This document shows positions 9,161-42,720 of a DNA stretch of 45,566 nucleotides, piece after piece. The stretch lies in the sequence record NC_073325.1. One strand, written 5' to 3'. Within the stretch, counting starts at the first letter, position 1. Every line of letters starts with the position of its first letter. Below the pieces are notes generated by a model. The model did no database searches. It had not been told where the DNA came from and worked only from the letters and a program-made list of their open reading frames with translations. Position numbers and translations under genes: made by a program. The DNA is from Escherichia phage vB_EcoS_XY1.

Positions 9161-9197
9161 CTTGCACACCCCAACATAATAGGATACTATTCACTTA
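9161..9197. promoter_or_regulatory. 37-bp bidirectional promoter/operator element (inverted copy of 30192-30228)
   Basis: Plus orientation TTGCAC-N17-TACTAT; minus orientation TTGGTG-N16-TATTAT; contains the palindrome AATAG-N4-CTATT; 36 of 37 nt identical to the reverse complement of 30192-30228. Confidence 0.5.
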
Positions 9198-9231: not shown

Positions 9232-9423
9232 ATGACAGGTATTACTATGTTCTTCTTAATCATTATCGTTTTAGTTTATTTTATCCCATTTCTCGTGGCG
9301 CATATGCGCAACCATAAAGCTAAATTAGCGATATTCATGGCTAATCTGTTTCTCGGTTGGGTTCTGCTGCCGTGGGTATTTATTTTAATCTGGGCGTGCA
9401 ACTCGAATGTCAAAGAGAAGTGA
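9232..9423 (+). CDS. Small membrane protein, superinfection-immunity (Imm) -like
   Basis: 63 aa with two hydrophobic helices; NLFLGW..W...IWA-type motif as in the Imm_superinfect family; AGGAG SD. Confidence 0.45.
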   Translation: MTGITMFFLIIIVLVYFIPFLVAHMRNHKAKLAIFMANLFLGWVLLPWVFILIWACNSNVKEK

Positions 9424-9461
9424 GCTAGTATAGGACAAATCCTAAACACGAGGAAGTAAGC

Positions 9462-10616: not shown

Positions 10617-10631
10617 AATATAGGTGAAAGT

Positions 10632-12448: not shown

Positions 12449-13618
12449 TGCGTAACTAATACGTTGAATTACGATAGACGACTGGTACTGGTTGCCTGTG
12501 GACTGTCCTTCTATACTTTGGGTAATTGATTCCGGGCCAGATATTTCTGGTGTAACAGCCGTAAGTTCTGCACGTTTCAAACTGAAAGACATAGCCCCGT
12601 TTACCCCCGCCAGAATAGAGTTAATCTCTACCTGCTGTTCATTGATGAACTTCTGAATCATCGCCATGTCGTACAGCTTACCGGAGATGGAGAAGGTGTT
12701 AGCGGCGCGGCTACGTTCCACAAACGCTACGTTAGTGTTGCCAAGTTCGAACTGTGCGGATGCGCTGTTATCGTTGGTGATTGTCAGGCTATCACAACGC
12801 AACGGCATAGAACCATCGAACACAGAAACGTCAACCGAAGAGAACGGCTCGTCACCAAACGTGACAGAGGAGAAATCAGAACCCGTCGGCGGCGTGGTGA
12901 GAATCTCCTGGCTGCGCCCGATGAACGGGAAACTGCCAGTTACCATCGCATTAACGGCCTGCTCGACAGTGAAACCGGAAACTTCCACACCTTTAGTCAG
13001 CGTGTACGCGTCAGCCCCGCCACACTGCCCTTTGTACCACGTGAGAATAGAGAACGTCTTGCACTGGCTTCCTGTTTCCAGTTTGTCGCCAGTCTTAGCG
13101 GCGGTAGTTACGGTCTCAGTGGTCAGAGTATGTTGGATACCAGCACCTGTAACAACAGATGCGCTTACCTCGGTTACGATAAACGGTTTGGCGTTATCAC
13201 CTGTTAAGTCGGTAAACGCAATCAGGTCGCCCACTTCAACGCCGTCGGTAATAAAGCTGCCATCAGCACGGGTGAACGTCTTGCCCGCCGGTGCGACGGT
13301 AATCGACAGCCCGGACAGAGAAACACCGGATTGCCACGTAGAACCTAAAGCCCCAGCCAGCCAGTCGTCCTGGCTTTTCGAACTAAGCTCAATAGCGTAT
13401 TCCCCGCTAACCTGCTTGTTACCGGTGCGGATGGACGTAGTTTCACGACTGCCGTCCAGTTCGTTGGATGTCAGTGTGTCACGGGTAATGGCGGGAACAC
13501 CGCCCGTGTTACGTAATGGTGACCATACCGGGTTAGTCGGTGTTACGCCCGGGGTCACTTCCGCCACATAGAATTGCGCGGTATTCGCGCCCTTAAAAGG
13601 AGTTGTAGCCATATTCAC
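12446..13618 (-). CDS. Major tail protein (tail tube), putative
   Basis: 390 aa, Thr/Ser/Gly-rich; last structural gene before the chaperones (separated by the plus-strand cassette); ends in a strong terminator. Confidence 0.45.
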   Translation of the reverse strand: MNMATTPFKGANTAQFYVAEVTPGVTPTNPVWSPLRNTGGVPAITRDTLTSNELDGSRETTSIRTGNKQVSGEYAIELSSKSQDDWLAGALGSTWQSGVSLSGLSITVAPAGKTFTRADGSFITDGVEVGDLIAFTDLTGDNAKPFIVTEVSASVVTGAGIQHTLTTETVTTAAKTGDKLETGSQCKTFSILTWYKGQCGGADAYTLTKGVEVSGFTVEQAVNAMVTGSFPFIGRSQEILTTPPTGSDFSSVTFGDEPFSSVDVSVFDGSMPLRCDSLTITNDNSASAQFELGNTNVAFVERSRAANTFSISGKLYDMAMIQKFINEQQVEINSILAGVNGAMSFSLKRAELTAVTPEISGPESITQSIEGQSTGNQYQSSIVIQRISYA

Positions 13619-19086: not shown

Positions 19087-19129
19087 AGCTTAGCACATTT
19101 TTAGTGAAAAGTCAACTATTCGAATAGTT
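19087..19129 (-). promoter_or_regulatory. Promoter-like site with adjacent 16-bp perfect palindrome
   Basis: Minus orientation TTGACT-N17-TAAGCT; palindrome AACTATTCGAATAGTT at 19114-19129 abuts the -35. Confidence 0.35.
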
Positions 19130-24265: not shown

Positions 24266-24526
24266 TCATTCCCCGCTCTCCTCTCGTGCGATACGTTGCT
24301 CAGTTTTAGTGATACCCCGGCGCGTGAATAACACCGGGCTTGTTTTAACGTGCGTCATCAGACGGTTGTTATAAATTACGTGGCGCTCGCAGTCCACGTC
24401 TTTGCTGTACTTCGCAATCGTCATTTCGTTGATGCCGGTTTGTCGGCACGTCTCGGCCATCGTGCCAAATTCTTTAATCAGGTTAGGAATGCTGGTAATC
24501 ATCCTAAGAAATTCCTCGTTGTCCAC
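24266..24526 (-). CDS. Hypothetical protein, possible DNA-binding
   Basis: 86-aa ORF, last gene before the packaging module; central RQTGINEMTIAKYSK could be an HTH. Confidence 0.35.
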   Translation of the reverse strand: MDNEEFLRMITSIPNLIKEFGTMAETCRQTGINEMTIAKYSKDVDCERHVIYNNRLMTHVKTSPVLFTRRGITKTEQRIAREESGE

Positions 24527-25936: not shown

Positions 25937-26021
25937 TTCTCTCTACTCCGTTCTCGTTGTCGATGAAGTAAATATAATAGGGTCTACGGTAATAGTCAAC
26001 TAGTCATTACAGAAAATAGAT

Positions 26022-27396: not shown

Positions 27397-27690
27397 TTAT
27401 TTATGTCTCCAGATGTATTGTCGTCTCTGTGGTTTCGTCGGGATATCATCGTATCCCAGCGATTTCCAGTAATTAAATAACCGATTAGAGATTGCAGCGC
27501 GTTCCTGTGTTTTAAACTCACCGAGGTTTACGGCCTTCCCGTTCTGGAATCCACAGGCGCGGACAGCTTTACGCCGCTCTTGTATCTCAGGGAACAGTGC
27601 GTTACGGCGACGCTTGTGTATACGTGTCTTCGCTCTCGGTGACAGCGGCGCAAGGCCGCTTCGTTTCAGGATGTCAGTTGCGAGGCTCAT
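27397..27690 (-). CDS. Small basic protein with AP2-like DNA-binding motif
   Basis: NGKAVNLGEFKTQERAAISNRL resembles the AP2 motif also present in the 5247-5897 protein. Confidence 0.35.
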   Translation of the reverse strand: MSLATDILKRSGLAPLSPRAKTRIHKRRRNALFPEIQERRKAVRACGFQNGKAVNLGEFKTQERAAISNRLFNYWKSLGYDDIPTKPQRRQYIWRHK

Positions 27691-28422: not shown

Positions 28423-28679
28423 TTAATGCACATACATGGAAACCCGACTCCGTAAAATTGCCATTCGTGTTCACGCTGTTTCTCCTTCCACCGTACCCAC
28501 ATCCGCTGAACCTCTGGTTCAGCGTAGCCATTGTCTTTCCGGGCCGGGGTGAACCCAAACCGGCTCCGGAACCATATTTCAAACTGCTGCAAAGTGAGTC
28601 TCACTTCCTGGTAACTTGAAGCCGTTGTCGGTCCGCGCCACGTTCCACTCAATCCCACCGTGGTACACAACCATGTCAT
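28404..28679 (-). CDS. Hypothetical protein (start uncertain; overlaps 28579-28764)
   Basis: 91-aa ORF; overlap suggests a shorter true product. Confidence 0.2.
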   Translation of the reverse strand: MTWLCTTVGLSGTWRGPTTASSYQEVRLTLQQFEIWFRSRFGFTPARKDNGYAEPEVQRMWVRWKEKQREHEWQFYGVGFPCMCIKCGLKK

Positions 28680-28764
28680 CTAAATCCAGGTCTATAACGG
28701 TTCCTACTTTGAAGATGCCTTTAGTCAGTTCACTGTCTCTTTTTGTAACTTTAACTTCTAACAT
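28579..28764 (-). CDS. Hypothetical small protein
   Basis: 61-aa ORF in the same-strand early cluster. Confidence 0.3.
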   Translation of the reverse strand: MLEVKVTKRDSELTKGIFKVGTVIDLDLDDMVVYHGGIEWNVARTDNGFKLPGSETHFAAV

Positions 28765-29137
28765 TTCGTTTTCCTCTGTCTCGTCTGTGTAAATGAATAG
28801 TAGCCTATTCTATCTTAGTGTGCAAGTAAATTTTATTGGTGTTTTAAAGATAATCGTTCGCCACGAATCCAGTAGTACCTCGGGCGTCTGGCCCACTGGC
28901 ACCAGCGCATAACACGGTACTTGTTGCCGTCTGACGCAACAATAAGCCCGAATCGCTTTTCTCCGTTTCTACCGGTCCAGGTTACGATGTCATTCAGTTT
29001 CATTGTTGCGTCTCCTGCAATAGTCGCTTCGATTGTTGCGTTTGGTGAAAGTGTCGCCTTTTGACGACACTAAGTTAAAGTTGTACGCTGCTGTGTAGCA
29101 GCGTAAGTCACTCAGTAAAATCCCAAACTATTGAACA

Positions 29138-29338
29138 TCACACTTCCGGCGGCTCAGGTAACGGCATCCAGTGAGTCACGTACTTATCGTAGTGATTCCA
29201 GAAAGGCTTTCTCCCGCCATCAGGAACGATGTAATAATCGTGTTGAACTGCGTTATTTAACGTTTCATACACCAGGAATTCTTTATCTGTACTACCGTTG
29301 CCCGGCAGCATCTCACTACACTTAATCCACTCACCCAT
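29138..29338 (-). CDS. Hypothetical protein, DUF551-like
   Basis: MGEWIKCSEMLPGNG N-terminus and ...HWMPLPEPPEV C-terminus; GAGGTGA SD. Confidence 0.35.
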   Translation of the reverse strand: MGEWIKCSEMLPGNGSTDKEFLVYETLNNAVQHDYYIVPDGGRKPFWNHYDKYVTHWMPLPEPPEV

Positions 29339-30191: not shown

Positions 30192-30228
30192 TAAGTGAAT
30201 AGTAACCTATTATGTTGGGGTGTGCAAG
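30192..30228. promoter_or_regulatory. 37-bp bidirectional promoter/operator element (inverted copy of 9161-9197)
   Basis: TAAGTGAATAGTAACCTATTATGTTGGGGTGTGCAAG; minus orientation TTGCAC-N17-TACTAT; plus orientation TATTAT -10; palindrome AATAG-N4-CTATT. Confidence 0.5.
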
Positions 30229-30610
30229 AGATTCATTGAAAATGGTTACGTTGCCGTTGTGATTCTTCAGGTAGGGTTGTGCCTTTATTCTTATTACTTG
30301 GTAACTAAAGGGCAGGCCCTAAGCCTGCCCAATAATCGTTACATTTTTACGGTTGCGAATCTACGGCACTTTAAGAAAATCAGATACTTAAGATATATTC
30401 CGCCGATGGGAATAGAGCTTGCCCAGGGCAACCGGAGATACTTAGGAAGGAAAGTTACGATAATTCGAATGTTCAGTAAACTGCCGCCTAACACTTCGCG
30501 TTGGGCGCTCGTTTTCGGCGGGTTTTACAAGGTGAACAGGAATCAAAGTAACTAAGATATAGAAGCACCTTAAACGAAGATTTTCTTAATGTCAATAGGT
30601 GCGATTATGT

Positions 30611-30639
30611 TTGATTTCCCATTATTCGCAATGTATACT
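30611..30639 (+). promoter_or_regulatory. Sigma70-like promoter for the rightward early operon
   Basis: TTGATT-N17-TATACT about 33 nt upstream of the 30672 ATG. Confidence 0.45.
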
Positions 30640-30671
30640 TGGTTTCGTTAACTGATAATGGGGGTTTGAGA

Positions 30672-30842
30672 ATGACACAGAATGAAGTAGCCGAGCGTAT
30701 TGGGGTTACCCGTCGCACGCTGAATAACTGGTTAAAGAGTGGGAAGTTCCCGGATTGTTGTATCCGTATTATGGGCCGCCGGCAGCCGGGTACTTTCGAC
30801 CCGGAGAAAGTGGAAGCGTGGATTAAGGAGAATGTAAAATGA
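30672..30842 (+). CDS. Small HTH DNA-binding protein (AlpA/excisionase-like fold)
   Basis: MTQNEVAERIGVTRRTLNNWLKSGKFP; GGGGG SD; start trimmed from track ORF 30639. Confidence 0.45.
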   Translation: MTQNEVAERIGVTRRTLNNWLKSGKFPDCCIRIMGRRQPGTFDPEKVEAWIKENVK

Positions 30843-31072
30843 CCGAGTTCCAGTCCCGCGTATTTACGGCAGTCGTTTCATTAACCTGTAAAAAAGGGTC
30901 GTGCAGCGTTATGGACTTGCGCCGTAGTTATTTTAGGTACTATAGTTCCGCCATTATTGAAGGGTCGTTGAAGGTACTGGTTAAATCTGGTGTCGTGAAA
31001 AATGTTGGCGGGAAATATAGTGCTGTTGCCGAAGTTCGCGGAATGACCGCTACTTTAGAAGACCTGGAATAA
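30839..31072 (+). CDS. Hypothetical protein
   Basis: 77-aa ORF with ATGA overlap between the HTH gene and the primase-helicase. Confidence 0.3.
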   Translation: MTEFQSRVFTAVVSLTCKKGSCSVMDLRRSYFRYYSSAIIEGSLKVLVKSGVVKNVGGKYSAVAEVRGMTATLEDLE

Positions 31073-33389: not shown

Positions 33390-33406
33390 GTAAAAAGAAA
33401 GGGGCG

Positions 33407-33622
33407 TTACGCCCCTTCACCTAGCGCCAGCCACTTGGCGTCTACTTCCAGCACTTCCGCCAGTTTAAACAGCGTTGCCGGGCGTACGTCCTGAGTTACC
33501 CCGAGTGCAAGCTGGTTAATCGCGCCCTGGGAAACGCCGGCCAGAACAGCCAGACGGCGCTGGGAGATACCGAGTTCTTTACGGCGTTGCTCTACACGGA
33601 TGCCTAGTTCAGATGGTTGCAT
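33407..33622 (-). CDS. Cro/XRE-family HTH transcriptional regulator
   Basis: 71 aa; LGISQRRLAVLAGVSQGAINQLALG HTH; AAGGAG SD; divergent from the rightward early promoters. Confidence 0.65.
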   Translation of the reverse strand: MQPSELGIRVEQRRKELGISQRRLAVLAGVSQGAINQLALGVTQDVRPATLFKLAEVLEVDAKWLALGEGA

Positions 33623-33642: not shown

Positions 33643-33671
33643 TTGATATGTGAATAGTACCATATTAATTA
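33643..33671 (+). promoter_or_regulatory. Upstream operator/promoter copy (TTGATA-TGTGAATAGTACCATAT-TAATTA)
   Basis: Imperfect copy of the operator core 44 bp upstream of the main copy. Confidence 0.4.
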
Positions 33672-33686: not shown

Positions 33687-33715
33687 TTGACATGTGAATA
33701 GTTCGCTATTATAGT
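33687..33715 (+). promoter_or_regulatory. Near-consensus sigma70 promoter with embedded operator palindrome
   Basis: TTGACA-N17-TATAGT; spacer contains AATAG-TTCG-CTATT; 29 bp upstream of the 33744 ATG. Confidence 0.6.
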
Positions 33716-33743
33716 TAGCCCATACCAAACGAGAGGGGCAGAT

Positions 33744-33971
33744 ATGAACACAATCACTGGGGCCATAGCTAAAGGTTTTCGAGCAATTTTCGGCGCTCCG
33801 CAAGAAGTGTGCACAAAACATAAATTTGTACTTTCTTGCGTAGTAGGGGATGAGTTTGATGGGTTCGATAAACTTGTTGTCTGTGACCATTGCGGGCAAG
33901 AAGCTATTCAACACTCAAACGGTAAATTTGAACTAATAGACGATAGCCTTACTGAAGGCGACGGTGAGTAA
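33744..33971 (+). CDS. Hypothetical protein, zinc-ribbon-like
   Basis: CTKHK...C...CDHC cysteine spacing; GAGAGGGG SD. Confidence 0.3.
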   Translation: MNTITGAIAKGFRAIFGAPQEVCTKHKFVLSCVVGDEFDGFDKLVVCDHCGQEAIQHSNGKFELIDDSLTEGDGE

Positions 33972-33995
33972 CTTACACAAACAGGAGAGAAACAA

Positions 33996-34496
33996 ATGTT
34001 AGAGAAATTCTTAGTATTGCTGGAACGTTTCGTAGTTGCACATGAACTGATTGCCGCGAACAGTGCGAAACAAGTTGTTCAGGTTGCCACGCCGCTGGAA
34101 GTAGAGACGGTATCGTACACCAAAGAAGCGGTAGCTGAGTGCGCTGAAGAAGCAACAAAAGAAATCCCGGTTGAAGGTGAAGACGTAGTTGACACTAAAC
34201 CGGCGGAGGAAGAGAAGCCAAAACGCAAGCCGCGTAAAGCTAAAGTAGAGGAACCTGCGCCAGAACCGGAAGAAGAGAAAGAAGAAGTCGATTACAAGTC
34301 TCTGCGTGACCAGATTCAGGCCATCGACGATGCAATTAATGAAGGTCCTAGCGATGCCGCGTGCGACGATTCTGATGAACTGCTGGAAGAGTTCACTGGT
34401 AAGAAAATGAAGATTGCAGCGATTAAAGACGAAGACCTGGCTGAATACCTGGAACGCTTGACAGCAATCAAGAACAAGTATTTCGAAGAAGAATAA
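33996..34496 (+). CDS. Highly acidic protein with central Lys/Pro-rich linker
   Basis: 166 aa; long Glu/Asp-rich stretches (EPEEEKEEVD, DDSDELLEEF). Confidence 0.4.
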   Translation: MLEKFLVLLERFVVAHELIAANSAKQVVQVATPLEVETVSYTKEAVAECAEEATKEIPVEGEDVVDTKPAEEEKPKRKPRKAKVEEPAPEPEEEKEEVDYKSLRDQIQAIDDAINEGPSDAACDDSDELLEEFTGKKMKIAAIKDEDLAEYLERLTAIKNKYFEEE

Positions 34497-34539
34497 TTAT
34501 CTGGCGGCCTTCGGGCCGCTTTAACTGAGGGTCGTAATA

Positions 34540-34755
34540 ATGAGTAACGTATACAAAGTAATAAACGAACAAATAGTTGTAGAAATAAGTGACTCATATG
34601 TGGGTTGTCAGCAATTCTTTGTTTTGAATGGTGCGTGGCGCGGGACTCTTGACTATGCCGCTGGCGAATATTGGGCGGACATGTACCCAACCGATAAAAC
34701 GGCGGTACATACAATTCGTCCCGCCGTTAAAGGTGAATTTGCGCCGTACTACTGA
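34540..34755 (+). CDS. Hypothetical small protein
   Basis: 71-aa ORF in the tightly packed rightward early array. Confidence 0.3.
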   Translation: MSNVYKVINEQIVVEISDSYVGCQQFFVLNGAWRGTLDYAAGEYWADMYPTDKTAVHTIRPAVKGEFAPYY

Positions 34756-34766
34756 GGGTCGGAATT

Positions 34767-34970
34767 ATGGCTATTTTAGCTAAGAAAAGTGGTCTTATGA
34801 TTTCTGGCAGCGTTGTCGCTGAAAATGATTTGGTTTACGTATTTCAGGCGGTAGACAACAAACACCCTACGACGGTCAAGAAGGCCAGCAAAGTTGAGAA
34901 GGTTTTCGACGGCGATTTTTCTATTGACGATGTTTTCACGTGGATTAATTCTGCGAGGGTAAGGAAATGA
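34767..34970 (+). CDS. Hypothetical small protein
   Basis: 67-aa ORF. Confidence 0.3.
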   Translation: MAILAKKSGLMISGSVVAENDLVYVFQAVDNKHPTTVKKASKVEKVFDGDFSIDDVFTWINSARVRK

Positions 34971-35239
34971 TTTACCAACTCTACCGCGCCGTCGACAGGC
35001 GGGACAACACAGAGGCACTATGGCTGTTGCGTGCGCCGTCCGGAGCGCACCAGATGGAAGAGATGGCTTACTTAGGCAAAGTACCGCGGCCTAAAGATAT
35101 AGGCCGTCACGTGTCACAGATTAAGCGCACGACATTCGCCAAGCCAGACTTTTATGTCTTTGAGTCGATGTATGGGTGGGCTATGCACTGCGAACATAAG
35201 ACGCGACATTTAATCGACCAGTGGGAGAGCAGGGTATGA
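34967..35239 (+). CDS. Hypothetical protein
   Basis: 90-aa ORF with ATGA overlap to the upstream gene. Confidence 0.3.
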   Translation: MIYQLYRAVDRRDNTEALWLLRAPSGAHQMEEMAYLGKVPRPKDIGRHVSQIKRTTFAKPDFYVFESMYGWAMHCEHKTRHLIDQWESRV

Positions 35240-35515
35240 CAAGGTACGCGATAATTGTAGAAATAGACGGTAAAGACCAGGAACACAGCCGCTACGCACG
35301 TTTGGACGAAGCCCAGTACATCTTCTACACATTCGGCTTCGCACGCAGTTTCACTAATGCGCGTATTGTGGAGATTGCAGAATGACGAACCGTAAAGCGC
35401 GACTTCTCTTTATTAAATGTCACCAGCCTTTTCGAGTAAGCAACTCGACTTGGCTGATTATATTCAACCGTAGCGGTGACACGTGCGCCTACAAGCGCAA
35501 AACGCGTAAAGTTAA

Positions 35516-36778
35516 ATGGGGTGGGAGTTTAAGAGCATGAAACTAAAAGAACGAGGCGGCAATAATGATGTACACGCCTTACTGTCACCGTCAGGCGCTA
35601 AAAAGTGGCTGTCATGCGCTGCGTCGCTGGCGTGTGAAAAAGATATCCCTAACACGTCGGGTAAAGCCGCTGTATCAGGAACCGCCATGCACACCATAGC
35701 TGAGGTCCATCTCAACGCCTATATACGCGGCACTGCGTTGCCGTTGGAGCGTGAAGTCGGCGCTTACGTGCTGGACGAGGGTAAAGGCCAGATTAAGGCG
35801 CTAATTAGCCAGATGAAAGGCGCGGTACTGATTACGGCTGACATGATTGAGCAGGTGCGCAAGTACACCGACTACTGCAAAGCGATTATCGACGTAGCGA
35901 CTTACGCCAAGCTGGAAATGCGGGTAAATCTTACTGAGGTATTGCATCCGGGTTACGAAGGCGTTGAGACGTTCGGAACCGCTGACCTTGTTGCCGTTCA
36001 GGAACTGGCGAACACTGACGAGCATATGCTCATTATCGGCGACCTGAAAACAGGACGGCATCATGTCGAAGCGAAAGAAAACAAGCAGCTTATGCTCTAC
36101 GCTCTCGGTGTTTACCGCCGACTCAAGAGACGTTATAACATATCAGTAGTGCGCCTGGTCATCTTCCAGCCGTACGCCGGGGGCGCGTCGGAGTGGGACA
36201 TCTCGGTTGAAGGTCTGGAACTGTTCGCTAAGTTCGCACAGAAACGCGCACTGTTAGCCCTTGATGCGTATTTCCGAGGCAAGAAGAACCTGAAAGCGTC
36301 GGACTTTAAGCCGTCTGTCGACGGTTGTCAGTGGTGTCGGTTCTCTGAACAGTGCGCAGCGCGTACAAAGACGGTTAATTCTGTACTTGCCGAAGAACTG
36401 GAGGACGACTTTGCGCTGGAACTTACGCCGGAGCAACTCGTAGCTGAATATGAGAAGTTGCCGTTGTTGCGCCAGCACATCGATAAGGTCGAAAAAGCTA
36501 TGGCTGCTGCGTTGCATTCCGGTAAGAAAGTGCCAGGGTACAAGCTGGTGGAAGGTCGCCCAGGTAATCGTGCGTGGAAAGACGCAGAGAAAGTGGCAGA
36601 ACTCTACGGCGACAAGCTGGCTAAAGAAGTGCTCCTGACGCCGACCGAAGCGGTTAAAGTAATACCAGAAGAAGAACTGAAAGACTTCATCACACGTAAG
36701 CCGGGGGCGCCATGCGTCACAACGGCGGACGACAAACGTCCTGAGTGGAATAAGGTTAGTGAAGAAGATTTAGAATAA
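35516..36778 (+). CDS. PD-(D/E)XK exonuclease, Cas4/RecB-like with C-terminal Cys cluster
   Basis: GDLKTGRHH...KENKQLMLYALGV nuclease core; CQWCRFSEQC C-terminal cysteines; start may be the Met at 35537. Confidence 0.55.
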   Translation: MGWEFKSMKLKERGGNNDVHALLSPSGAKKWLSCAASLACEKDIPNTSGKAAVSGTAMHTIAEVHLNAYIRGTALPLEREVGAYVLDEGKGQIKALISQMKGAVLITADMIEQVRKYTDYCKAIIDVATYAKLEMRVNLTEVLHPGYEGVETFGTADLVAVQELANTDEHMLIIGDLKTGRHHVEAKENKQLMLYALGVYRRLKRRYNISVVRLVIFQPYAGGASEWDISVEGLELFAKFAQKRALLALDAYFRGKKNLKASDFKPSVDGCQWCRFSEQCAARTKTVNSVLAEELEDDFALELTPEQLVAEYEKLPLLRQHIDKVEKAMAAALHSGKKVPGYKLVEGRPGNRAWKDAEKVAELYGDKLAKEVLLTPTEAVKVIPEEELKDFITRKPGAPCVTTADDKRPEWNKVSEEDLE

Positions 36779-36782
36779 AGTG

Positions 36783-36811
36783 TTGACATCTGAATAGTTA
36801 GCTATTATAGT
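36783..36811 (+). promoter_or_regulatory. Sigma70 promoter with operator palindrome upstream of the SSB/polymerase operon
   Basis: TTGACA-N17-TATAGT with AATAG-TTAG-CTATT in the spacer; nearly identical to 33687-33715. Confidence 0.6.
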
Positions 36812-36865
36812 TCTAATCACTGGCCGGGCAGCTTCCCGGAGTAATCTTAAAAGCGAGAAATCAAG

Positions 36866-37492
36866 ATGGGCATTAAACTGAATCTGCGTAAAGTAAACAC
36901 TGCATGGGTTAACGTATTCGAACGCGAAAAAGACCGTGAAAACGACGACGGCTCAATCACTAAAGGCCAGTACAGCGCAACTATCATCCTGCCGACTGAC
37001 CATGCTCAAATCGATGCGCTGTACGACACTGTTTACGCTGTAGTTGAAGAAGCATTAGGTGCAGCTGCTGCCGAGAAGTGGATGAAGTCAAACTACGGCG
37101 AAGGCAAGCATATGGATAAATGCGCTATTAAAGACATTGCTGAGCGCGACAATCCGTTTGAAGACTTCCCGGAAGGCTTCTACTTCAAAGCGAAAGCACA
37201 GAAACAGCCGCTGATTGTAACCTCTAAAAAAGGTGAGACTCAGGTGGAGCAGGACTTCAACGTAGACGGTGAACAGATTGAAGGTGAACAGGTTTACAGC
37301 GGCTGCGTCGCTAACGTAAGCGTCGAAATCTGGTTCAGCCAGAAATATAAAGTACTCGGCGTTAACCTGCTGGCGATTAAATACGTCGGAGAAGGTAAAG
37401 CGTTTGGAGGCTCTAAAGTTGCTGCAAGCGTCGACGACCTGGAAGACGACGAAGAAGATGAAGCACCGCGCCGCGAACGTCGCCGCCGTTAA
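36866..37492 (+). CDS. Single-stranded DNA-binding protein (T7 gp2.5-like)
   Basis: 208 aa with an acidic C-terminal tail DDLEDDEEDE; sits between nuclease and polymerase genes. Confidence 0.5.
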   Translation: MGIKLNLRKVNTAWVNVFEREKDRENDDGSITKGQYSATIILPTDHAQIDALYDTVYAVVEEALGAAAAEKWMKSNYGEGKHMDKCAIKDIAERDNPFEDFPEGFYFKAKAQKQPLIVTSKKGETQVEQDFNVDGEQIEGEQVYSGCVANVSVEIWFSQKYKVLGVNLLAIKYVGEGKAFGGSKVAASVDDLEDDEEDEAPRRERRRR

Positions 37493-37551
37493 TATCTGAA
37501 TCAATTTAACTAAGGCCCTTCATTGGGCCTTTTTACTAAGGGTCGAAAATA

Positions 37552-39723
37552 ATGAGTTACCTGTTCTTAGACTTTGAAACATTCTCCGAAGCCGATTTGA
37601 AGAAAGTCGGTTCCTACGCTTACGCCGAACATCCAACTACCGAAGTGCTAATCTGTACATATGCTTTTAACGACCAGCCTGTACAGGTATGGGATTGCAC
37701 CGACGGCAGCGATATGCCGGGCGATTTGTATCGCGCGTTACGCCGCCTGGTTAAGCCGAACAGCCGCGTTAAGATGGTGTGGCACAACGGCTCAATGTTC
37801 GATAGGCTCGTCATGAAACACTGCTGGGGTTTTGACATTCCGGTAAGCAACACCATTGATACGATGATTTGGGCGTTTCGTCACGCGCTGCCGGGTTCGC
37901 TCGATGCGCTGTGCGAAGTGCTGGGCGTGTCCGCCGACAACGCGAAAGACAAACGCGGCAAGGCGCTGATTCAGCGTTTCTCTAAACCGACGCCGAAGAA
38001 CTACAAAATCCGCCGCTACACCGCTGAAACACATCCCGATGAGTGGGCGCTGTTCATCAAGTATGCCGTTAGCGACATTACTGCGATGCGTGAAGTCTTC
38101 CATAAGCTGCCGCGATGGGGTAACTCGGAGTTCGAAGACCGTGTACTGGAACTTGACCAGTTAATCAACGACCGCGGATTTAAGGTTGACGTCGCACTGG
38201 CGGAAGCCGCGATTGAAGCCGTAGAGAAGCACAAGGCACAGTTACAGGAAGAAGCTCAACGTAAATACGGCGGCTCGCTTACCGGTAAAGACTTCCTTCC
38301 GATTCTGCGTGAACTTGCGCCCGCGCACCACATACACAATGCACAGAAGTCGACGCTTAACGACCTGTTGGCAGATGATGATTTACCGGACGACGCCCGG
38401 ATGATTATCGAAATGCGCCTCGGGGCCGCGTCAACAGCGTCCACGAAATATAACCCGCTGCTGTTAGGCCGCTCGTCGGACGACCGACGCCGCGGTTGTA
38501 TCCAGTACGGTGGGGCAAAGCGTACTCTGCGATGGGCCGGTAAAGGCTTCCAGCCGCAGAACCTGGCACGCGGTTACTATCACGATGATGAGCTGGATAA
38601 AGGCATTTCGGCGTTACTTAAGGGTCGCGCCCATCGCCGTTTCGATGTGGCCAAGCTAACGGCATCGACCGTTCGTAGCTGCATCATACCGGAAGCAGGG
38701 CATAAGTTTGTCGTTGCCGATTACTCTAACGTCGAAGGCCGCGGTCTTGCGTGGCTGGCGGGTGAAGACGATTTAATCGAAGTATTTGTAAACGGGGTTG
38801 ATGTGTATAAGAAACTCGCATCAACGGTGTTCAATGTTGCATATGAAGCCGTAACAAAGGACCAAAGACAAATAGCCAAAGCAATGGTTCTGGGACTCGG
38901 CTACGCGGGGGGCGTCGGTGCTTTCGTCACGTTTGCTAAAAACTTAGGTCTTGATTTGAATGACATGACTAACACTTTAGACGGTACATTCCCGGACCAT
39001 ATTTGGGCCGCTACCGCACGCGGATACGAATGGGCGCGTATTCAGGAAGCCAAGCGACCACCACGTCCTGGTGAAAAAGATGACCGACCCTCATATATCC
39101 TTGATAAGAAAGTTTGGCGCACCTGTGACGCTTTAAAGCGCATGTACCGGGAAGCTAATCCTGCAATAGTCCAATTCTGGCGCGATATTGAAGACGCAGC
39201 TATGGCAGCAATCCGTAATCCGGGGAAAGAGTTCACCGCTGGCCCTCGCGGGGTTAAGTTTTCTCGCAACGTAGAAACAGACAACAACGGCAACAAAGTC
39301 GCCGGTTGGTGGTTGTGCATGACGTTGCCGTCGGGTCGCGTTATGTCATACCCTGGCGTCGGGTTAAGTGTATCGAAAGAGACAGATGAAGACGGAAAGG
39401 TGTCTACTAACGTGCGCATCAAGTACCAGGGGGAGAACCAGTTAACCAGGCAGTGGGGATTCCAGTACACATATTCCGGTAAACTCGTGGAAAACTGCAC
39501 TCAGGCGCTGTGCCGTGATTTGCTGGCTAATGCACTGCTGAACGTAGAGGCAAACGGCTACCCAATTGTACTTCATGTTCACGATGAGATTATCTGCGAA
39601 ACTCCAGATTTACCGGAATACAATGTCGCAGAGCTTGAGCGATTGATGTGCGAATTACCAGAATGGGCAGAGGGGTTCCCTCTTGTAGCAGAAGGTCAGG
39701 AGTTAAAACGTTATGCTAAGTAA
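37552..39723 (+). CDS. DNA polymerase, family A, with 3'-5' exonuclease domain
   Basis: Exo I LFLDFETFS near the N-terminus; polymerase motif C VLHVHDEIICE near the C-terminus; 723 aa. Confidence 0.8.
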   Translation: MSYLFLDFETFSEADLKKVGSYAYAEHPTTEVLICTYAFNDQPVQVWDCTDGSDMPGDLYRALRRLVKPNSRVKMVWHNGSMFDRLVMKHCWGFDIPVSNTIDTMIWAFRHALPGSLDALCEVLGVSADNAKDKRGKALIQRFSKPTPKNYKIRRYTAETHPDEWALFIKYAVSDITAMREVFHKLPRWGNSEFEDRVLELDQLINDRGFKVDVALAEAAIEAVEKHKAQLQEEAQRKYGGSLTGKDFLPILRELAPAHHIHNAQKSTLNDLLADDDLPDDARMIIEMRLGAASTASTKYNPLLLGRSSDDRRRGCIQYGGAKRTLRWAGKGFQPQNLARGYYHDDELDKGISALLKGRAHRRFDVAKLTASTVRSCIIPEAGHKFVVADYSNVEGRGLAWLAGEDDLIEVFVNGVDVYKKLASTVFNVAYEAVTKDQRQIAKAMVLGLGYAGGVGAFVTFAKNLGLDLNDMTNTLDGTFPDHIWAATARGYEWARIQEAKRPPRPGEKDDRPSYILDKKVWRTCDALKRMYREANPAIVQFWRDIEDAAMAAIRNPGKEFTAGPRGVKFSRNVETDNNGNKVAGWWLCMTLPSGRVMSYPGVGLSVSKETDEDGKVSTNVRIKYQGENQLTRQWGFQYTYSGKLVENCTQALCRDLLANALLNVEANGYPIVLHVHDEIICETPDLPEYNVAELERLMCELPEWAEGFPLVAEGQELKRYAK

Positions 39724-39844
39724 ACTGATTATCGCGGTACTGGCGGGATTCGCCGCCGGTGTCTACTGTCACGAGGGTCAATACGGCATGATGGTTGCCA
39801 TATTGGGCATGTTCATCGCAATTTATCTGTGGGTGCTGGAATGA
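39713..39844 (+). CDS. Tiny hydrophobic peptide (unannotated in the ORF track)
   Basis: 43-aa ORF MLSKLIIAVLAGFAAGVY...IAIYLWVLE overlapping the polymerase stop; coordinates approximate. Confidence 0.25.
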   Translation: MLSKLIIAVLAGFAAGVYCHEGQYGMMVAILGMFIAIYLWVLE

Positions 39845-39926
39845 AAATTTACTGGTTTTATGAAGAAGACTGCCGAATCTGTCCGCGCTGTGGAATTGAG
39901 CATACGAAACGCGAGGGGTGCATATT

Positions 39927-40079
39927 ATGACAATGTTTGTATTTTGGACGATAGTAACCATGATCGCACTGTTACTCGGTGCGGGAATAGCCGCGATGTT
40001 CTGCTATGGCCTGTTCTTTAAGTTTGCGGGCGTTGCCGTTCTCGGCGGGGCTTTCCTTACTTGGGTCCTGCGCTCATGA
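39927..40079 (+). CDS. Tiny hydrophobic peptide (unannotated in the ORF track)
   Basis: 50-aa ORF MTMFVFWTIVTMIALLLGAGIAAMFCYGLFF...; ATGA overlaps on both sides; coordinates approximate. Confidence 0.25.
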   Translation: MTMFVFWTIVTMIALLLGAGIAAMFCYGLFFKFAGVAVLGGAFLTWVLRS

Positions 40080-40378
40080 CCCCGGAAGGCAAGATTCAGA
40101 AATACGCAAAAGAGCGATTCGAGGCCATCGGTGGCCTCGTTCGTAAGCTGTCTTATGAGGGTAGAAACGGAGCGCCTGACCTGCTGGTAGTCCTACCGGG
40201 AGGGGTGATATGGTTCGTCGAGGTGAAGAAAGACGAAAACACGGAACCGGAGGCCCATCAGTTGCGGGAACACAAACGGCTTCGTAAACGTGACGCAAAT
40301 GTTTTTGTAGTAGGAACAAAAGAAGAGGTTGACGACCTAATAGCGAACTATTATAGTAGTCATACACCAACAATATAA
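40076..40378 (+). CDS. VRR-NUC domain nuclease
   Basis: NGAPDLLVVLPGGVIWFVEVKKDEN motif; start trimmed to the ATG at 40076. Confidence 0.55.
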   Translation: MTPEGKIQKYAKERFEAIGGLVRKLSYEGRNGAPDLLVVLPGGVIWFVEVKKDENTEPEAHQLREHKRLRKRDANVFVVGTKEEVDDLIANYYSSHTPTI

Positions 40379-40389
40379 GGAATTGAGAA

Positions 40390-40593
40390 ATGAGAAAGTT
40401 AGACCCGCACATCGTTAAGTACATGTACGAAAAATATGATGGCGACATTGTAACCGCATTGGAGGGATTAGTTGGCGCTGAATCTGTTTTAGATGATCTT
40501 GAATTTGACCGACTGTGCATATGTATAGACGAGGCAAAACGTAACGCACTGAATTATGTACTAGAAAACTACTGCACAGAGGAAGACGAATAA
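40390..40593 (+). CDS. Hypothetical small protein
   Basis: 67-aa ORF between the nuclease and helicase genes. Confidence 0.3.
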   Translation: MRKLDPHIVKYMYEKYDGDIVTALEGLVGAESVLDDLEFDRLCICIDEAKRNALNYVLENYCTEEDE

Positions 40594-40787
40594 TGAATAA
40601 ACACGAATACGACCGCAAACCAGCACGTGACATCGTACCGGGCGACATGATTTTCAACGTTAAGACCCGTCGGCCTGTTGCCGTGGATACGGTGTTCGTC
40701 GAGTCGAACGGTAAACTGGTTATCGAAGACGTAACTGGCAACGTTACCGCGTTCGGGCGTAAAGAGCTTGTTCTGGTGGCAAAATGA
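40593..40787 (+). CDS. Hypothetical small protein
   Basis: 64-aa ORF with overlapping stop/start. Confidence 0.3.
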   Translation: MNKHEYDRKPARDIVPGDMIFNVKTRRPVAVDTVFVESNGKLVIEDVTGNVTAFGRKELVLVAK

Positions 40788-42208
40788 GTAAGTTTCAAAG
40801 GCGCGAATATCAGAAGCTCATGACTTCGTTCATGCTACAGCATCCGCGCTGTAATATCTGGTGCGGCATGGGAGGGGGCAAAACCTCCTCAACTATGTGG
40901 GTGCTTAATCGCCTGTTTCGCAACGGGCAGCTTACAGAAGAGGACCGCGTGTTAATCCTCGCCCCGTTGCGTGTTGCGTCGGGTACGTGGCCTGCAGAAC
41001 AAGAGAAATGGAACTTCCCTTGTCTGCGTGTCGTCGATGCGACCGGTTCGGAGAAGCGCCGCATCGCGGCGCTGGAGTCAGACGCTAACGTGGTGTGCAC
41101 TAACTACGAAGTTATCGAGTGGCTAATTGACTACTACGGCAAAGACGACTGGCCTTTTACGGTTATCGTTGCCGATGAAAGCACGAAGCTTAAATCGTTC
41201 CGCCGCCGTTCGGGTGGTAGCAAGCGGGCAAAGGCGCTCAGCAAGGTTGCGTTCGGAAAGGTTAAGCGTTTCATCAACCTTACTGGTACACCGTCGCCAA
41301 ACGGCCTCAAGGACTTGTGGGGCCAGAACTGGTTTATCGACGCTGGCGAGCGCCTGGGGTCATCGTACACGGCATTCACCGACCGCTGGTTTAACTCGGT
41401 ACAGAAGGGTAAATCGGCGATGGCACGCGAGTACCACGCGCGACCAGGTGCCGATAATGAGATTCATCAGAAGATGAAAGACATCAGCCTTACCATCGAC
41501 CCCGCAGAGTGGTTTGGATGTGAAGCGCCGATTATTGTACCGGTTGAAATAGACCTACCGAAGAAGGCGCGTCAGGCGTACATCGATATGGAGGAGAAAT
41601 TATTCGCAGAACTGGAGAGCGGGGAAGTTGAAGCGGCTAACGCTGCGGCGAAGACCTCAAAGTGCTTGCAGATTGCATCTGGTGCCGTGTATGTGTCAGG
41701 GCCGGATGGCGAAGCGACCAAAGACTGGGAGAAAGTGCACGACACGAAACTGGATGCGCTCGAGTCGATTGTTGAGGAGTTGCAGGGTGCGCCGTTGCTG
41801 GTAGCCTATCAGTTTAAACACGAACTGGAGCGTATCCTTAAGCGATTCCCACAGGCACAGGCGTTCGCCAAAGGCGCTAGGGGGAACAAGCAGATGGAAG
41901 CGTGGAACCGTGGGGAAATCGAGATTTTATGCGTGCATCCTGCGTCAGCCGGGCATGGTTTGAATTTACAGGACGGGGGTCATCATCTGGCGTTCATCTC
42001 GCAAGGCTGGAACCTTGAGCACTATTTGCAGGTTGTTGAGCGCATAGGCCCAGTCCGCCAGAAACAGGCGGGTCACGAGCGCCCGGTGTTCCTTTATCAC
42101 ATCGTTGCTAAAGACACTCTGGACGGGGTTGTCGCCGCGCGTACCGACGAGAAGAAATCGGTACAGGAAGAGTTGCTTAATTACATGAAGAGACGAGGTA
42201 AGAAATGA
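40784..42208 (+). CDS. Superfamily-2 helicase (SNF2/DEAD-like)
   Basis: Walker A GMGGGKT; DExx box VIVADEST; 474 aa; adjacent to the VRR-NUC gene. Confidence 0.75.
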   Translation: MSKFQRREYQKLMTSFMLQHPRCNIWCGMGGGKTSSTMWVLNRLFRNGQLTEEDRVLILAPLRVASGTWPAEQEKWNFPCLRVVDATGSEKRRIAALESDANVVCTNYEVIEWLIDYYGKDDWPFTVIVADESTKLKSFRRRSGGSKRAKALSKVAFGKVKRFINLTGTPSPNGLKDLWGQNWFIDAGERLGSSYTAFTDRWFNSVQKGKSAMAREYHARPGADNEIHQKMKDISLTIDPAEWFGCEAPIIVPVEIDLPKKARQAYIDMEEKLFAELESGEVEAANAAAKTSKCLQIASGAVYVSGPDGEATKDWEKVHDTKLDALESIVEELQGAPLLVAYQFKHELERILKRFPQAQAFAKGARGNKQMEAWNRGEIEILCVHPASAGHGLNLQDGGHHLAFISQGWNLEHYLQVVERIGPVRQKQAGHERPVFLYHIVAKDTLDGVVAARTDEKKSVQEELLNYMKRRGKK

Positions 42209-42720
42209 TGGATTTCGAAGAGTTTCTACTTAAAGCTCATCTGCTGGCGCGTGGGTTTGACGCTGACCGTCTCCAGGTAGTCTTAGCCCCTGGAGTAGCT
42301 ACGTTTTACCTGTGGGGGTTTGACGGTAGGCTTCGCGGATACCAGCATTACAAACCACATGCCGAAAAGAACTGTAAAAACCCTAAAGACGCGCGGTACT
42401 TTACCAGAACAACAAGGCCGTGTTTATGGGGGCTTGAGTATTTGCCGGAAAGCGGGGTGGTATTTGTTACCGAAAGCATATTCAAAGCCGTAGCCTTGAT
42501 GAATTGCGGGTTCAATGCTGTAAGCGCACTGGGGTCAAATATATCAACAGACCTACGGCAGCAAATGTCACTTTTGCCGTATGACTGGGTGTGCGCTGGC
42601 GACAATGATAAAGCTGGATTAAAGTTCAGCAAAACATTCACCAGAGGATTTGTATCTAACGACCTTGATGAACTTTGTGAAGAAGAAATAACGTATCTTG
42701 CGAGGAAATTTACCAGATGA
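42205..42720 (+). CDS. TOPRIM-domain protein (DnaG-type primase catalytic core-like)
   Basis: VFVTESIFKA (Glu) and VCAGDNDKAG (DxD) motifs. Confidence 0.45.
   Translation: MMDFEEFLLKAHLLARGFDADRLQVVLAPGVATFYLWGFDGRLRGYQHYKPHAEKNCKNPKDARYFTRTTRPCLWGLEYLPESGVVFVTESIFKAVALMNCGFNAVSALGSNISTDLRQQMSLLPYDWVCAGDNDKAGLKFSKTFTRGFVSNDLDELCEEEITYLARKFTR

What the first reader, a model, noticed from the sequence alone, without database searches (positions are those of the whole stretch)
36783..36811. Same operator-in-promoter motif restarts transcription before the SSB/DNA polymerase operon
Seen: TTGACATCTGAATAGTTAGCTATTATAGTT at 36783-36812 differs from TTGACATGTGAATAGTTCGCTATTATAGTT at 33687-33716 at only two positions. 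Together with 9161-9197, 30192-30228 and 33643-33671 this defines a genome-wide consensus, TGAATAGT-N3-CTATTAT. A related palindrome, AACTATTCGAATAGTT, lies at 19114-19129. Inference: a regulon of at least five sites controlled by a single factor.
Basis: seen in the sequence. Interest (0 to 1): 0.5.

Follow-up and report, generated by a model that had tools for sequence, protein, structure and literature searches.

The report
Cro-like repressor operators in phage promoters
A lytic E. coli phage (Kagunavirus) carries the same 14-bp mirror-image DNA site inside nearly all of its early and DNA-replication promoters. The site is most likely the landing pad of a small phage-encoded 434-Cro-like repressor, which is a tidy but conventional gene switch.

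Summary
The window is a near-complete Kagunavirus genome. The shared element is a dyad, AATAG-N4-CTATT, with 6 exact copies against 0.02 expected by chance. Every copy lies inside a sigma-70-type promoter. Three copies sit in the spacer of TTGAC(A/G)-17-TATAGT promoters, including the one before the SSB/DNA polymerase genes. Three more overlap the -10 of TTGCAC-17-TACTAT promoters. Two imperfect copies overlap the promoter of a 71-aa HTH gene (33407-33622) and the -35 of the promoter leading to the packaging genes.

Comparative data argue for a dimeric protein reading the site. The half-sites stay fixed while the central 4 bp vary. Jerseyviruses keep the core but require T at the flank, whereas Kagunaviruses have G on one side. 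Pantoea phage AH01 has switched symmetrically to AATAC-N4-GTATT at the orthologous promoters.

The best candidate is the 71-aa protein, whose closest solved relative is 434 Cro. Its gene sits between two sites. Two other DNA-binding candidates were excluded, but binding was not tested.

The motif was already published as PHIRE "phage RNAP promoters", which is a misattribution. The 19114 palindrome has the opposite geometry and is not shown to belong to the regulon. This is a new member of a known kind, of modest interest.

The parts
36783..36811 (+). Class A promoter TTGACA-17-TATAGT before the Gp2.5/Enc34-type SSB gene (36866-37492) and the DNA polymerase gene (37552-39723). The operator dyad AATAGTTAGCTATT is at 36793-36806, centred at about -18.5.
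   Evidence: 11/12 consensus match; SSB. The orthologous promoter is annotated in the Jersey GenBank record. The site is conserved in 48 Kagunavirus- and Jerseyvirus-type genomes or loci.
33687..33715 (+). Class A promoter TTGACA-17-TATAGT for the 33744-36778 operon (small ORFs plus the DUF2800 exonuclease). The dyad is at 33697-33710, centred at -18.5. The promoter is divergent from the HTH gene.
40329..40357 (+). Class A promoter TTGACG-17-TATAGT inside the last codons of the VRR-NUC nuclease gene, upstream of 40390-42720 (small ORFs, DNA helicase, Toprim-like protein). The dyad is at 40339-40352.
   Evidence: The orthologous Jersey promoter (29238-29266) is annotated in the GenBank record.
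9162..9190 (+). Class B promoter TTGCAC-17-TACTAT for the reverse-oriented module 9232-12249 (Imm superinfection-immunity protein, phosphoesterase, kinase, GTPase-like protein). The dyad at 9178-9191 overlaps the -10 and is centred at -12.5.
30199..30227 (-). Class B promoter TTGCAC-17-TACTAT heading the leftward early operon (from 30191 downward). The dyad is at 30198-30211, centred at -12.5.
28797..28825 (-). Class B promoter TTGCAC-17-TACTAT inside the leftward early region, upstream of the 28579-28764 gene (Pfam Gp54 antiviral trigger family). The dyad is at 28796-28809.
33653..33666 (-). Imperfect dyad AATAGTACCATATT (1 mismatch). It overlaps the -10 (TACTAT, 33659-33654) of the weak promoter of the HTH gene and is the putative autoregulatory operator.
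   Evidence: The imperfection is conserved in L010, L044, Jersey-type loci and AH01.
25971..25999 (-). Promoter TTGACT-17-TATATT upstream of the 25936-to-NinH-to-terminase transcription unit. An imperfect dyad (25991-26004, 1 mismatch) lies over the -35, centred at -33.5.
   Evidence: The Jersey orthologue (42338) is annotated as a promoter.
33407..33622 (-). Gene for a 71-aa Cro/CI-type HTH protein, the proposed repressor of the regulon.
   Evidence: HTH_3, 47 bits; best PDB match 434 Cro, E=2e-6, full length
33398..33418 (-). Terminator-like hairpin immediately after the HTH gene, which makes it a monocistronic unit.

Best explanation
The 14-bp dyad AATAG-N4-CTATT (in Kagunavirus usually TG-AATAG-N4-CTATT-AT) is an operator. 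It is embedded in the core of the host-RNA-polymerase (sigma-70) promoters that drive nearly all early and DNA-metabolism transcription units of this lytic siphovirus.

A dimer of the phage's 71-aa 434-Cro-like HTH protein (33407-33622) most likely binds it. Because the site lies in the spacer (centre -18.5), over the -10 (centre -12.5) or over the -35 (centre -33.5), the bound dimer would block RNA polymerase. The strong promoters fire on infection. As the repressor accumulates, it turns them down. This includes the internal promoter that boosts SSB and DNA polymerase expression.

The repressor's own promoter and the promoter leading to the packaging genes carry imperfect sites. They would therefore be shut off last or least.

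What is shown: the sites, their promoter context, their conservation, and their co-variation with phage lineage. What is inferred: which protein binds, that binding represses, and the timing.
For: - **Frequency:** there are 6 exact dyads against 0.02 expected.
- **Location:** 8 of the top 10 matrix hits lie in the 8.2% of non-coding DNA.
- **Promoter context:** each exact site lies in a sigma-70-like promoter. The three class A promoters are the best-scoring promoter matches in 26-45.5 kb.
- **Registers:** the dyad sits at three different registers relative to the -35 and -10. It is therefore not itself a polymerase-recognition element.
- **Variable centre:** among 50 unique Kagunavirus sites selected for exact half-sites, the central 4 bp take 24 different forms. 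At the orthologous SSB promoter the half-sites are kept while the centre and the upstream flank vary.
- **Other lineages:** Jersey has 4 exact sites against 0.05 expected. Pantoea phage AH01 instead has 5 exact AATAC-N4-GTATT sites against 0.02 expected, at the orthologous promoters, and this variant is absent from six other genomes. That is a symmetric change on both half-sites.
- **Flank co-variation:** the flanking base tracks the HTH protein type. At the SSB promoter it is G in 35 of 35 K-type genomes/loci and T in 12 of 12 J-type, including J-type genomes whose SSB is 96-99% identical to the window's. Across all J-type half-sites it is T in 34 of 34.
- **The protein:** it is HTH_3, 71 aa, and its best solved relative is 434 Cro over its full length. 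Its gene lies between an exact and an imperfect operator in a back-to-back promoter arrangement.
- **HTH conservation:** residues 17-47 (the helix-turn-helix) are almost unchanged in variants down to 77% identity: the recognition helix is the same in all but one, and the few substitutions lie in the preceding helix.
- **Candidates excluded:** the HTH_17 protein and the 77-aa protein are missing from loci that keep the sites. The NinH-like protein is present in St162, which has no motif, and was not detected in AH01, which has the variant motif.
Against: - No binding or expression experiment exists.
- The K-type and J-type HTH proteins are only 49% identical. They differ at several recognition-helix positions (SQGAINQLA against SQSLITHLA) yet share the same 5-bp core.
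- Five other Guernseyvirinae lineages keep a homologous HTH gene but show no clear repeated dyad. These are St162, VLCpiS11a, phiEap-2, TS33 and Tsm2.
- Other conserved small proteins of unknown function cannot be excluded as the binder. Examples are 27397-27690, which is weakly AP2-like in AH01, and 34967-35239.
- The helicase-primase operon promoter (30611-30639) lacks the site.
- It is unclear how late genes would escape repression.
Confidence: 0.6

Rival explanations
1. The regulon and the repression-by-occlusion logic are the same, but the dyad is read by a different protein. Candidates are another phage product, such as the conserved 97-aa protein at 27397-27690 or the 90-aa protein at 34967-35239, or a host transcription factor.
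For: The core AATAG is identical in Kagunavirus and Jerseyvirus although their HTH proteins are only 49% identical. Several lineages have the HTH gene without a clear dyad set. The proteins at 27397-27690 and 34967-35239 are conserved across all lineages and have unknown function. The AH01 homologue of the 97-aa protein has a sub-threshold AP2 match.
Against: - No other protein with a recognisable sequence-specific DNA-binding domain is shared by all three motif-bearing lineages.
- The 90-aa protein is about 97% identical between K and J types. It therefore cannot explain the fixed G/T flank difference.
- A host factor is unlikely. Salmonella phages Jersey and St162 infect the same host species, yet only Jersey has the motif.
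- A 14-bp dyad with 5-bp half-sites fits a Cro-type dimer, and the HTH gene sits between two sites.
Confidence: 0.22
2. No trans-acting factor is involved. The shared sequence reflects duplication or gene conversion of promoter cassettes, or sequence features that RNA polymerase itself prefers.
For: The 9161-9197 and 30192-30228 stretches are nearly identical beyond the dyad. The -10-proximal half (CTATTATAGT, TACTAT) overlaps promoter hexamers. Part of that half persists in lineages without the dyad.
Against: - The dyad occurs at three different registers relative to the hexamers.
- The half-site distal to the -10 lies in the spacer, which is not sequence-read, yet it is conserved while the centre varies.
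- AH01 changed both half-sites symmetrically at five or more promoters.
- J-type genomes fixed T at both flanks at every site.
Confidence: 0.08
3. The factor activates rather than represses, for example through a MerR-like spacer-binding mechanism or as a middle-gene activator.
For: In class A promoters the site lies in the spacer, where MerR-type activators bind. An HTH_17 (MerR/excisionase-like) protein is encoded at 30672-30842.
Against: - The spacers are the optimal 17 bp and the hexamers are near consensus (10-11 of 12), so no activation is needed.
- In class B promoters the site covers the -10.
- The HTH_17 gene is absent from L020, which keeps four exact sites.
Confidence: 0.07
4. The motif is the promoter of a phage-encoded RNA polymerase, as labelled in the fBC-Eco01 paper (PHIRE 'Phage RNAP promoter' PP1-PP7).
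For: PMC9825357 lists seven such sites with the consensus tgAATAGTa-ccTATTat-T.
Against: No RNA polymerase gene is annotated in BUCT825, Bas73, Jersey, St162, VLCpiS11a or AH01. Nearly all window genes map to those annotated genes, and the few that do not showed no polymerase domain where scanned. The motif sits between sigma-70 hexamers at the correct spacing.
Confidence: 0.01

Closest known systems
Phage 434 Cro with the OR/OL operators (and the P22 C2/Cro and DicA relatives)
   Same: The protein is a 71-aa single-domain HTH_3 protein that aligns over its full length with 434 Cro, including the C-terminal D-x-x-W-L-x-x-G motif. The operators are 14-bp dyads with a variable centre. By my own recollection, 434 operators are ACAA-N6-TTGT and P22 operators are TTAAG-N4-CTTAA-like, so the geometry is the same. 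The operators overlap the promoter cores. The gene lies next to back-to-back promoters that each carry an operator.
   Different: There is no CI partner, no integrase and no lysogeny module, so this is a lytic phage. The operators are not clustered in one immunity region. They are scattered over at least 7 promoters around the genome and sit at three different registers. The half-site sequence is different. Binding is untested.
Genome-wide phage repressor regulons (P1 C1 with its many operators; mycobacteriophage L5 gp71 'stoperators'). This comparison is from my own knowledge.
   Same: One small phage repressor has many dispersed sites that control many transcription units.
   Different: Those phages are temperate and their sites are asymmetric. 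The L5 sites also act inside transcription units in an orientation-dependent way. Here the sites are symmetric and are found only in promoter cores.
PHIRE 'phage-specific promoters' reported for Kagunaviruses fBC-Eco01 (PMC9825357) and Golestan (PMC7203180)
   Same: It is the same repeated sequence, tgAATAGTa-ccTATTat-T, with seven copies per genome at the equivalent places.
   Different: Those papers treat it as a promoter for a phage RNA polymerase, or leave it uninterpreted. The analysis here shows that it is a dyad nested inside host-type promoters and behaves like an operator.
Controller (C) proteins of restriction-modification systems. This comparison is from my own knowledge.
   Same: They are small HTH_3 dimers that bind short dyads overlapping their own promoter and give delayed, autoregulated switching.
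   Different: C proteins regulate one or two promoters of a restriction-modification operon and both activate and repress. No restriction-modification context exists here.

Membership tests
Cro/CI-type (HTH_3, 434 Cro-like) repressor-operator system | Protein with a Cro/CI-type helix-turn-helix domain | tested here: met
   Pfam HTH_3 scores 47.2 bits against a cut-off of 23. The best PDB sequence match is 434 Cro, E=2e-6, residues 6-68 aligned to 4-64.
Cro/CI-type (HTH_3, 434 Cro-like) repressor-operator system | Dyad-symmetric operator of about 14-18 bp with conserved half-sites and a variable centre | tested here: met
   AATAG-N4-CTATT has 6 exact copies against 0.02 expected. There are 24 centre variants among 50 unique sites.
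Cro/CI-type (HTH_3, 434 Cro-like) repressor-operator system | Operators overlap the core elements of the regulated promoters | tested here: met
   The dyad centres lie at -18.5, -12.5 and -33.5 of sigma-70-like promoters. The promoters themselves are predicted, not mapped.
Cro/CI-type (HTH_3, 434 Cro-like) repressor-operator system | Regulator gene adjacent to operators, including one over its own promoter (autoregulation) | tested here: met
   An exact site lies at 33697 and a 1-mismatch site at 33653 over the gene's TACTAT -10. The same layout occurs in L044, Jersey-type loci and AH01.
Cro/CI-type (HTH_3, 434 Cro-like) repressor-operator system | Specificity of protein and operator co-vary between relatives | tested here: inconclusive
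   In favour: the AH01 lineage has a different helix and AATAC/GTATT sites, and the flank is G in K-type and T in J-type genomes. Against: K-type and J-type proteins differ in the recognition helix but share the core, and five lineages have the gene without a clear dyad.
Cro/CI-type (HTH_3, 434 Cro-like) repressor-operator system | The protein binds the operator and represses transcription | not testable with these tools
   This needs EMSA or footprinting and reporter or knock-out experiments.
Lambdoid immunity region (CI/Cro bistable switch) | Paired CI-type maintenance repressor with integrase/excision functions | tested here: not met
   No integrase and no second repressor are present in the window or in annotated relatives. 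The only 'excisionase-like' HTH_17 gene belongs to a swappable cassette next to the helicase-primase gene.
Phage-RNA-polymerase promoters (PHIRE label in PMC9825357) | Phage encodes its own RNA polymerase | tested here: not met
   No such gene is annotated in six related genomes. Nearly all window genes map onto those annotated genes.
MerR-type spacer-binding activation | Over-long (19-20 bp) spacer and a MerR-family dimer | tested here: not met
   The spacers are 17 bp. The HTH_17 protein is 56 aa without a coiled coil and is absent from L020, which keeps the sites.

The most novel reading that the evidence does not exclude
A strictly lytic siphovirus subfamily runs its temporal programme with a 'Cro-only' circuit. 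One 71-aa repressor acts on operators of graded quality placed at three registers in every early and middle promoter. Operator specificity has diversified between genera (AATAG with a G/T flank, TAATAG, AATAC), so replication modules exchanged by recombination must have their operators re-tuned to the resident repressor. This would amount to 'immunity groups' among virulent phages. Such groups could shape co-infection outcomes, and they would supply orthogonal repressor-promoter pairs for engineering.
Probability: 0.25. Interest if true: 0.55.

Novelty: new member of a known kind. Interest (0 to 1): 0.35.

Why it matters
Guernseyvirinae (Kagunavirus, Jerseyvirus) are among the most frequently isolated therapeutic and biocontrol phages of E. 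coli and Salmonella. One of them, CM001, is used as a synthetic-biology chassis according to the BASEL preprint. Their transcription programme is essentially unstudied. The repeated motif has been mislabelled as a phage-polymerase promoter.

Recognising it as an operator inside host-type promoters does three things:
- It gives a concrete, testable model for how these phages shut down early and replication genes.
- It corrects an annotation habit.
- It offers compact strong promoters that should be repressible by a 71-aa protein, with natural specificity variants.

The design is conventional, so the finding is not surprising to specialists.

Tried and rejected
- **HTH_17 protein (30672-30842) as the binder.** Its distribution (Kagunavirus and Jerseyvirus only, 71-100% identical) matched the motif at first. 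However, locus L020 lacks it, with a Zn-ribbon and a 149-aa protein in its place, and still keeps four exact sites. Its recognition helix also varies among genomes that share the motif.
- **77-aa protein (30839-31072).** It is absent from most Kagunavirus loci that have the motif.
- **NinH-like protein (24266-24526).** It is present in St162, which has no motif, and was not detected in AH01.
- **Dyad regulons in other lineages.** I looked for a distinct repeated dyad in St162, VLCpiS11a, phiEap-2, TS33 and Tsm2. I found only weak or single cases: ATTA-N6-TAAT with 3 copies against 0.6 expected in St162, and ATACTATAGTAT once in VLCpiS11a.
- **K-type HTH protein in an independent genomic context.** All 20 hits in the 5.8-billion-protein search that come from contigs long enough to judge are on 28-45 kb Kagunavirus-sized contigs. 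No independent test was therefore possible.
- **Temporal RNA-seq paper on Kagunavirus K1B4 (PMC12645636).** Its gene numbers could not be mapped to these genes, and the time course is not synchronous.
- **Rfam.** There were no matches in the window.
- **Repeats in the 30192-30671 non-coding region.** Nothing convincing was found.
- **PDB sequence searches.** Searches with the 90-aa and 97-aa conserved proteins gave nothing useful.

Full report
**What the window is.** The 33-38 kb stretch is 97% identical to Escherichia phage BUCT825 and matches about 450 Kagunavirus and Jerseyvirus records. The first 25 kb match the same group. Nearly all BUCT825 genes map onto the window, so the window is an essentially complete genome of a lytic siphovirus of the genus Kagunavirus (subfamily Guernseyvirinae).

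Late structural genes run leftward. The replication genes run rightward from about 30.6 to 42.7 kb. They comprise an HTH_17 protein, a 77-aa protein, helicase-primase, small ORFs, the DUF2800 exonuclease, a Gp2.5/Enc34-type SSB, DNA polymerase and a DNA helicase. A leftward block of small early genes and the lysis genes starts at 30.19 kb.

**Checking the observation.** The two 30-mers at 36783 and 33687 differ at two positions. The 18-mer consensus has 10 matches at up to 3 mismatches against 0.92 expected.

The real core is a 14-bp dyad, AATAG-N4-CTATT. It has six exact copies, at 9178, 28796, 30198, 33697, 36793 and 40339, against 0.02 expected. It is the commonest 5-N-5 palindrome in this genome and in BUCT825, Bas73 and Jersey.

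A matrix built from the six sites puts 8 of its top 10 hits entirely in the 8.2% of the genome that is non-coding. Of the four hits that were not used to build the matrix (33651, 25989, 20733, 19105), three are fully intergenic.

**Anatomy.** Every exact dyad is nested in a sigma-70-type promoter.
- **Class A** (33687-33715, 36783-36811, 40329-40357, all on the + strand) is TTGAC(A/G)-17 bp-TATAGT. These are the three best promoter matches in the right half of the genome. The dyad lies in the spacer, centred at -18.5.
- **Class B** (9162-9190 on +; 30227-30199 and 28825-28797 on -) is TTGCAC-17 bp-TACTAT. The right half-site forms part of the -10, and the dyad is centred at -12.5.
- **First imperfect site:** 33653-33666 covers the TACTAT -10 of the weak promoter of the 71-aa HTH gene.
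- **Second imperfect site:** 25991-26004 covers the -35 of TTGACT-17-TATATT, which heads the unit running through the NinH-like gene into the terminase genes.

The regulated units are therefore the early and DNA-metabolism operons plus a reverse-oriented accessory module (Imm, phosphoesterase, kinase). The helicase-primase operon promoter (30611-30639) has no site.

The finding's own site (36783-36811) follows directly after the stop codon of the exonuclease gene. No terminator is predicted upstream. It is thus an internal promoter that boosts SSB and polymerase expression rather than a restart after termination. The orthologous promoter is already annotated in the Jersey GenBank record.

**Is it an operator or just a promoter sequence?** Four observations point to a dimeric sequence-specific protein.
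1. The dyad sits at three different registers relative to the hexamers.
2. In class A the half-site nearer the -35 is in the spacer, which polymerase does not read. It is nevertheless conserved, while the central 4 bp take 24 forms among 50 unique Kagunavirus sites. At the orthologous SSB promoter the centre and the upstream flank drift while the half-sites stay.
3. Jersey, a different genus, keeps the core at the orthologous promoters, with 4 exact sites against 0.05 expected.
4. Pantoea phage AH01 and the metagenomic locus L055 have AATAC-N4-GTATT at the orthologous promoters instead. AH01 has 5 exact copies against 0.02 expected, plus imperfect ones, and this variant is absent from six other genomes. 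Even the class B -10 changes in step, from TACTAT to TAGTAT.

A symmetric change on both half-sites at many promoters is what co-evolution with a dimeric reader predicts.

**Which protein?** The window encodes three recognisable DNA-binding proteins.
- The HTH_17 protein and the neighbouring 77-aa protein looked attractive because they occur only in Kagunavirus and Jerseyvirus. But the 77-aa protein is missing from most Kagunavirus loci with the motif. Both are replaced by unrelated genes in L020, which keeps four exact sites. They look like a swappable replication-initiation cassette.
- The NinH-like protein is present in St162, which has no motif, and was not detected in AH01.
- The 71-aa HTH_3 protein (33407-33622) remains. 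It is present in all motif-bearing lineages. Its best solved relative is 434 Cro, which has the same length and aligns end to end.

Further points favour the 71-aa protein. Its gene is monocistronic with its own terminator, and it sits back-to-back with a class A promoter, between an exact and an imperfect operator. The imperfect state of the site over its own promoter recurs in L044, Jersey-type loci and AH01. Its HTH segment is almost unchanged in variants down to 77% identity: the recognition helix SQGAINQLA is the same in all but one variant, and the few substitutions lie in the preceding helix.

The operator flank also tracks the protein type. At the SSB promoter, all 35 K-type genomes/loci have G and all 12 J-type have T. 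This holds even for J-type phages whose SSB is 96-99% identical to the window's. Across all J-type half-sites the flank is T in 34 of 34.

**Weaknesses.**
- K-type and J-type proteins are only 49% identical and differ in the recognition helix, yet they share the 5-bp core.
- Five other Guernseyvirinae lineages (St162, VLCpiS11a, phiEap-2, TS33, Tsm2) keep a homologous gene but show only relics of the site or single palindromes.
- Two conserved small proteins of unknown function (27397-27690 and 34967-35239) cannot be excluded as the binder.
- The promoters are predicted, not mapped.
- The only transcriptome paper on a Kagunavirus could not be mapped to these genes.

I therefore give about 0.85 to 'operator for a dimeric repressor' and about 0.6 to the full model that names the 434-Cro-like protein.

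**Proposed mechanism.** The class A and B promoters are near consensus and should fire on entry of the DNA. The 71-aa protein, made from its own weak promoter, would accumulate and occupy the exact dyads. That would occlude polymerase and turn down the early, replication and accessory units. The imperfect sites on its own promoter and on the promoter leading to the packaging genes would fill last. This would give negative autoregulation and a shift toward late expression. These steps are inferred from site positions and from how 434, P22 and lambda Cro work; that last comparison is my own knowledge.

**The 19114-19129 palindrome.** It is real and is one of only two perfect 16-bp palindromes in the window. 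But its half-sites are everted (CTATT-CG-AATAG). It is conserved only in Kagunaviruses and is absent from Jersey, St162, VLCpiS11a and AH01. It is centred at -41.5 of a promoter-like TTGACT-17-TAAGCT on the minus strand, ahead of the spanin and head genes. A Cro-type dimer is not expected to bind both geometries, so I do not count it in the regulon. Its position would suit an activator site, but that is speculation.

**What is already known.** The fBC-Eco01 paper lists seven copies of tgAATAGTa-ccTATTat-T as 'Phage RNAP promoters' found with PHIRE. The Golestan paper reports seven PHIRE promoters. No phage RNA polymerase gene exists in these genomes, so that label is wrong.

I found no paper that interprets the motif as an operator or discusses the HTH protein's role. 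The searchable library does not include, for example, the Jerseyvirinae proposal paper itself.

**Verdict.** The repeated element is thus known. Its reading as a Cro-type operator regulon, with lineage-specific specificity variants, appears to be new. It is an additional example of a very familiar kind of system.

Noticed in passing
window 36824-36839: A hairpin, CCGGG-CAGCTT-CCCGG, lies at the predicted 5' end of the SSB mRNA, just downstream of the 36783-36811 promoter. It is conserved across Kagunavirus, Jerseyvirus, St162, VLCpiS11a, AH01 and L067-type phages. Three of its 5 stem pairs show compensatory changes, all cells are paired, and 0 of 500 shuffles reach the covariation score. It may be an mRNA-stabilising stem-loop or a site for SSB autoregulation of translation.
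   Followed up: partly
window 19114-19129 (promoter-like -35 at 19115-19110 and -10 at 19092-19087, minus strand): A perfect 16-bp palindrome, AACTATTCGAATAGTT, is built from the same hexamer half-sites in everted order. It is centred at -41.5 of TTGACT-17-TAAGCT ahead of the spanin and head genes. It is conserved only in Kagunaviruses.
   Followed up: partly
window 30672-31072; locus L020 7059-7644: The HTH_17 gene and the 77-aa gene upstream of helicase-primase form a replaceable cassette. In L020 a 47-aa Zn-ribbon protein and a 149-aa protein take their place, and many Kagunaviruses lack the 77-aa gene. This may be a replication-initiator or origin module together with the 480-bp non-coding region 30192-30671.
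   Followed up: partly
window 30192-30671: This is an unusually long (480 bp) non-coding stretch between the divergent early operons. It holds terminator-like hairpins on both strands (30310-30330 on -, 30485-30507 on +) and a few short repeats. Bas73 annotates a 106-aa ORF here. There is no Rfam match. It could be an origin or a small RNA.
   Followed up: partly
window 28579-28764 and 9232-9423: Two of the operator-controlled promoters drive accessory genes. One matches Pfam 'Phage antiviral trigger protein Gp54' (4.6e-26). The other is an Imm superinfection-immunity protein (7.7e-14).
   Followed up: no
L005 (Bas73, PQ850603.1) 34027-34242: The GenBank record of phage Bas73 does not annotate the intact 71-aa HTH gene, which is 97% identical to the window's. 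A 31-aa ORF is annotated on the opposite strand instead.
   Followed up: yes
window 34967-42208 compared with Jersey (L004): The replication module from the 90-aa gene to the DNA helicase is mostly 90-99% identical at the protein level between this Kagunavirus and Salmonella phage Jersey (the nuclease gene at 40061-40378 is 72%). Flanking genes are 45-65% identical. This points to recent exchange of the module between genera. The operators inside the module nevertheless carry the flank base typical of the resident HTH protein type.
   Followed up: partly
L006 (St162) 12685-13000: The non-coding region after the St162 primase/helicase gene is packed with G-rich repeats (GGGGGAGA-like). This may be an origin or iteron region.
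   Followed up: no
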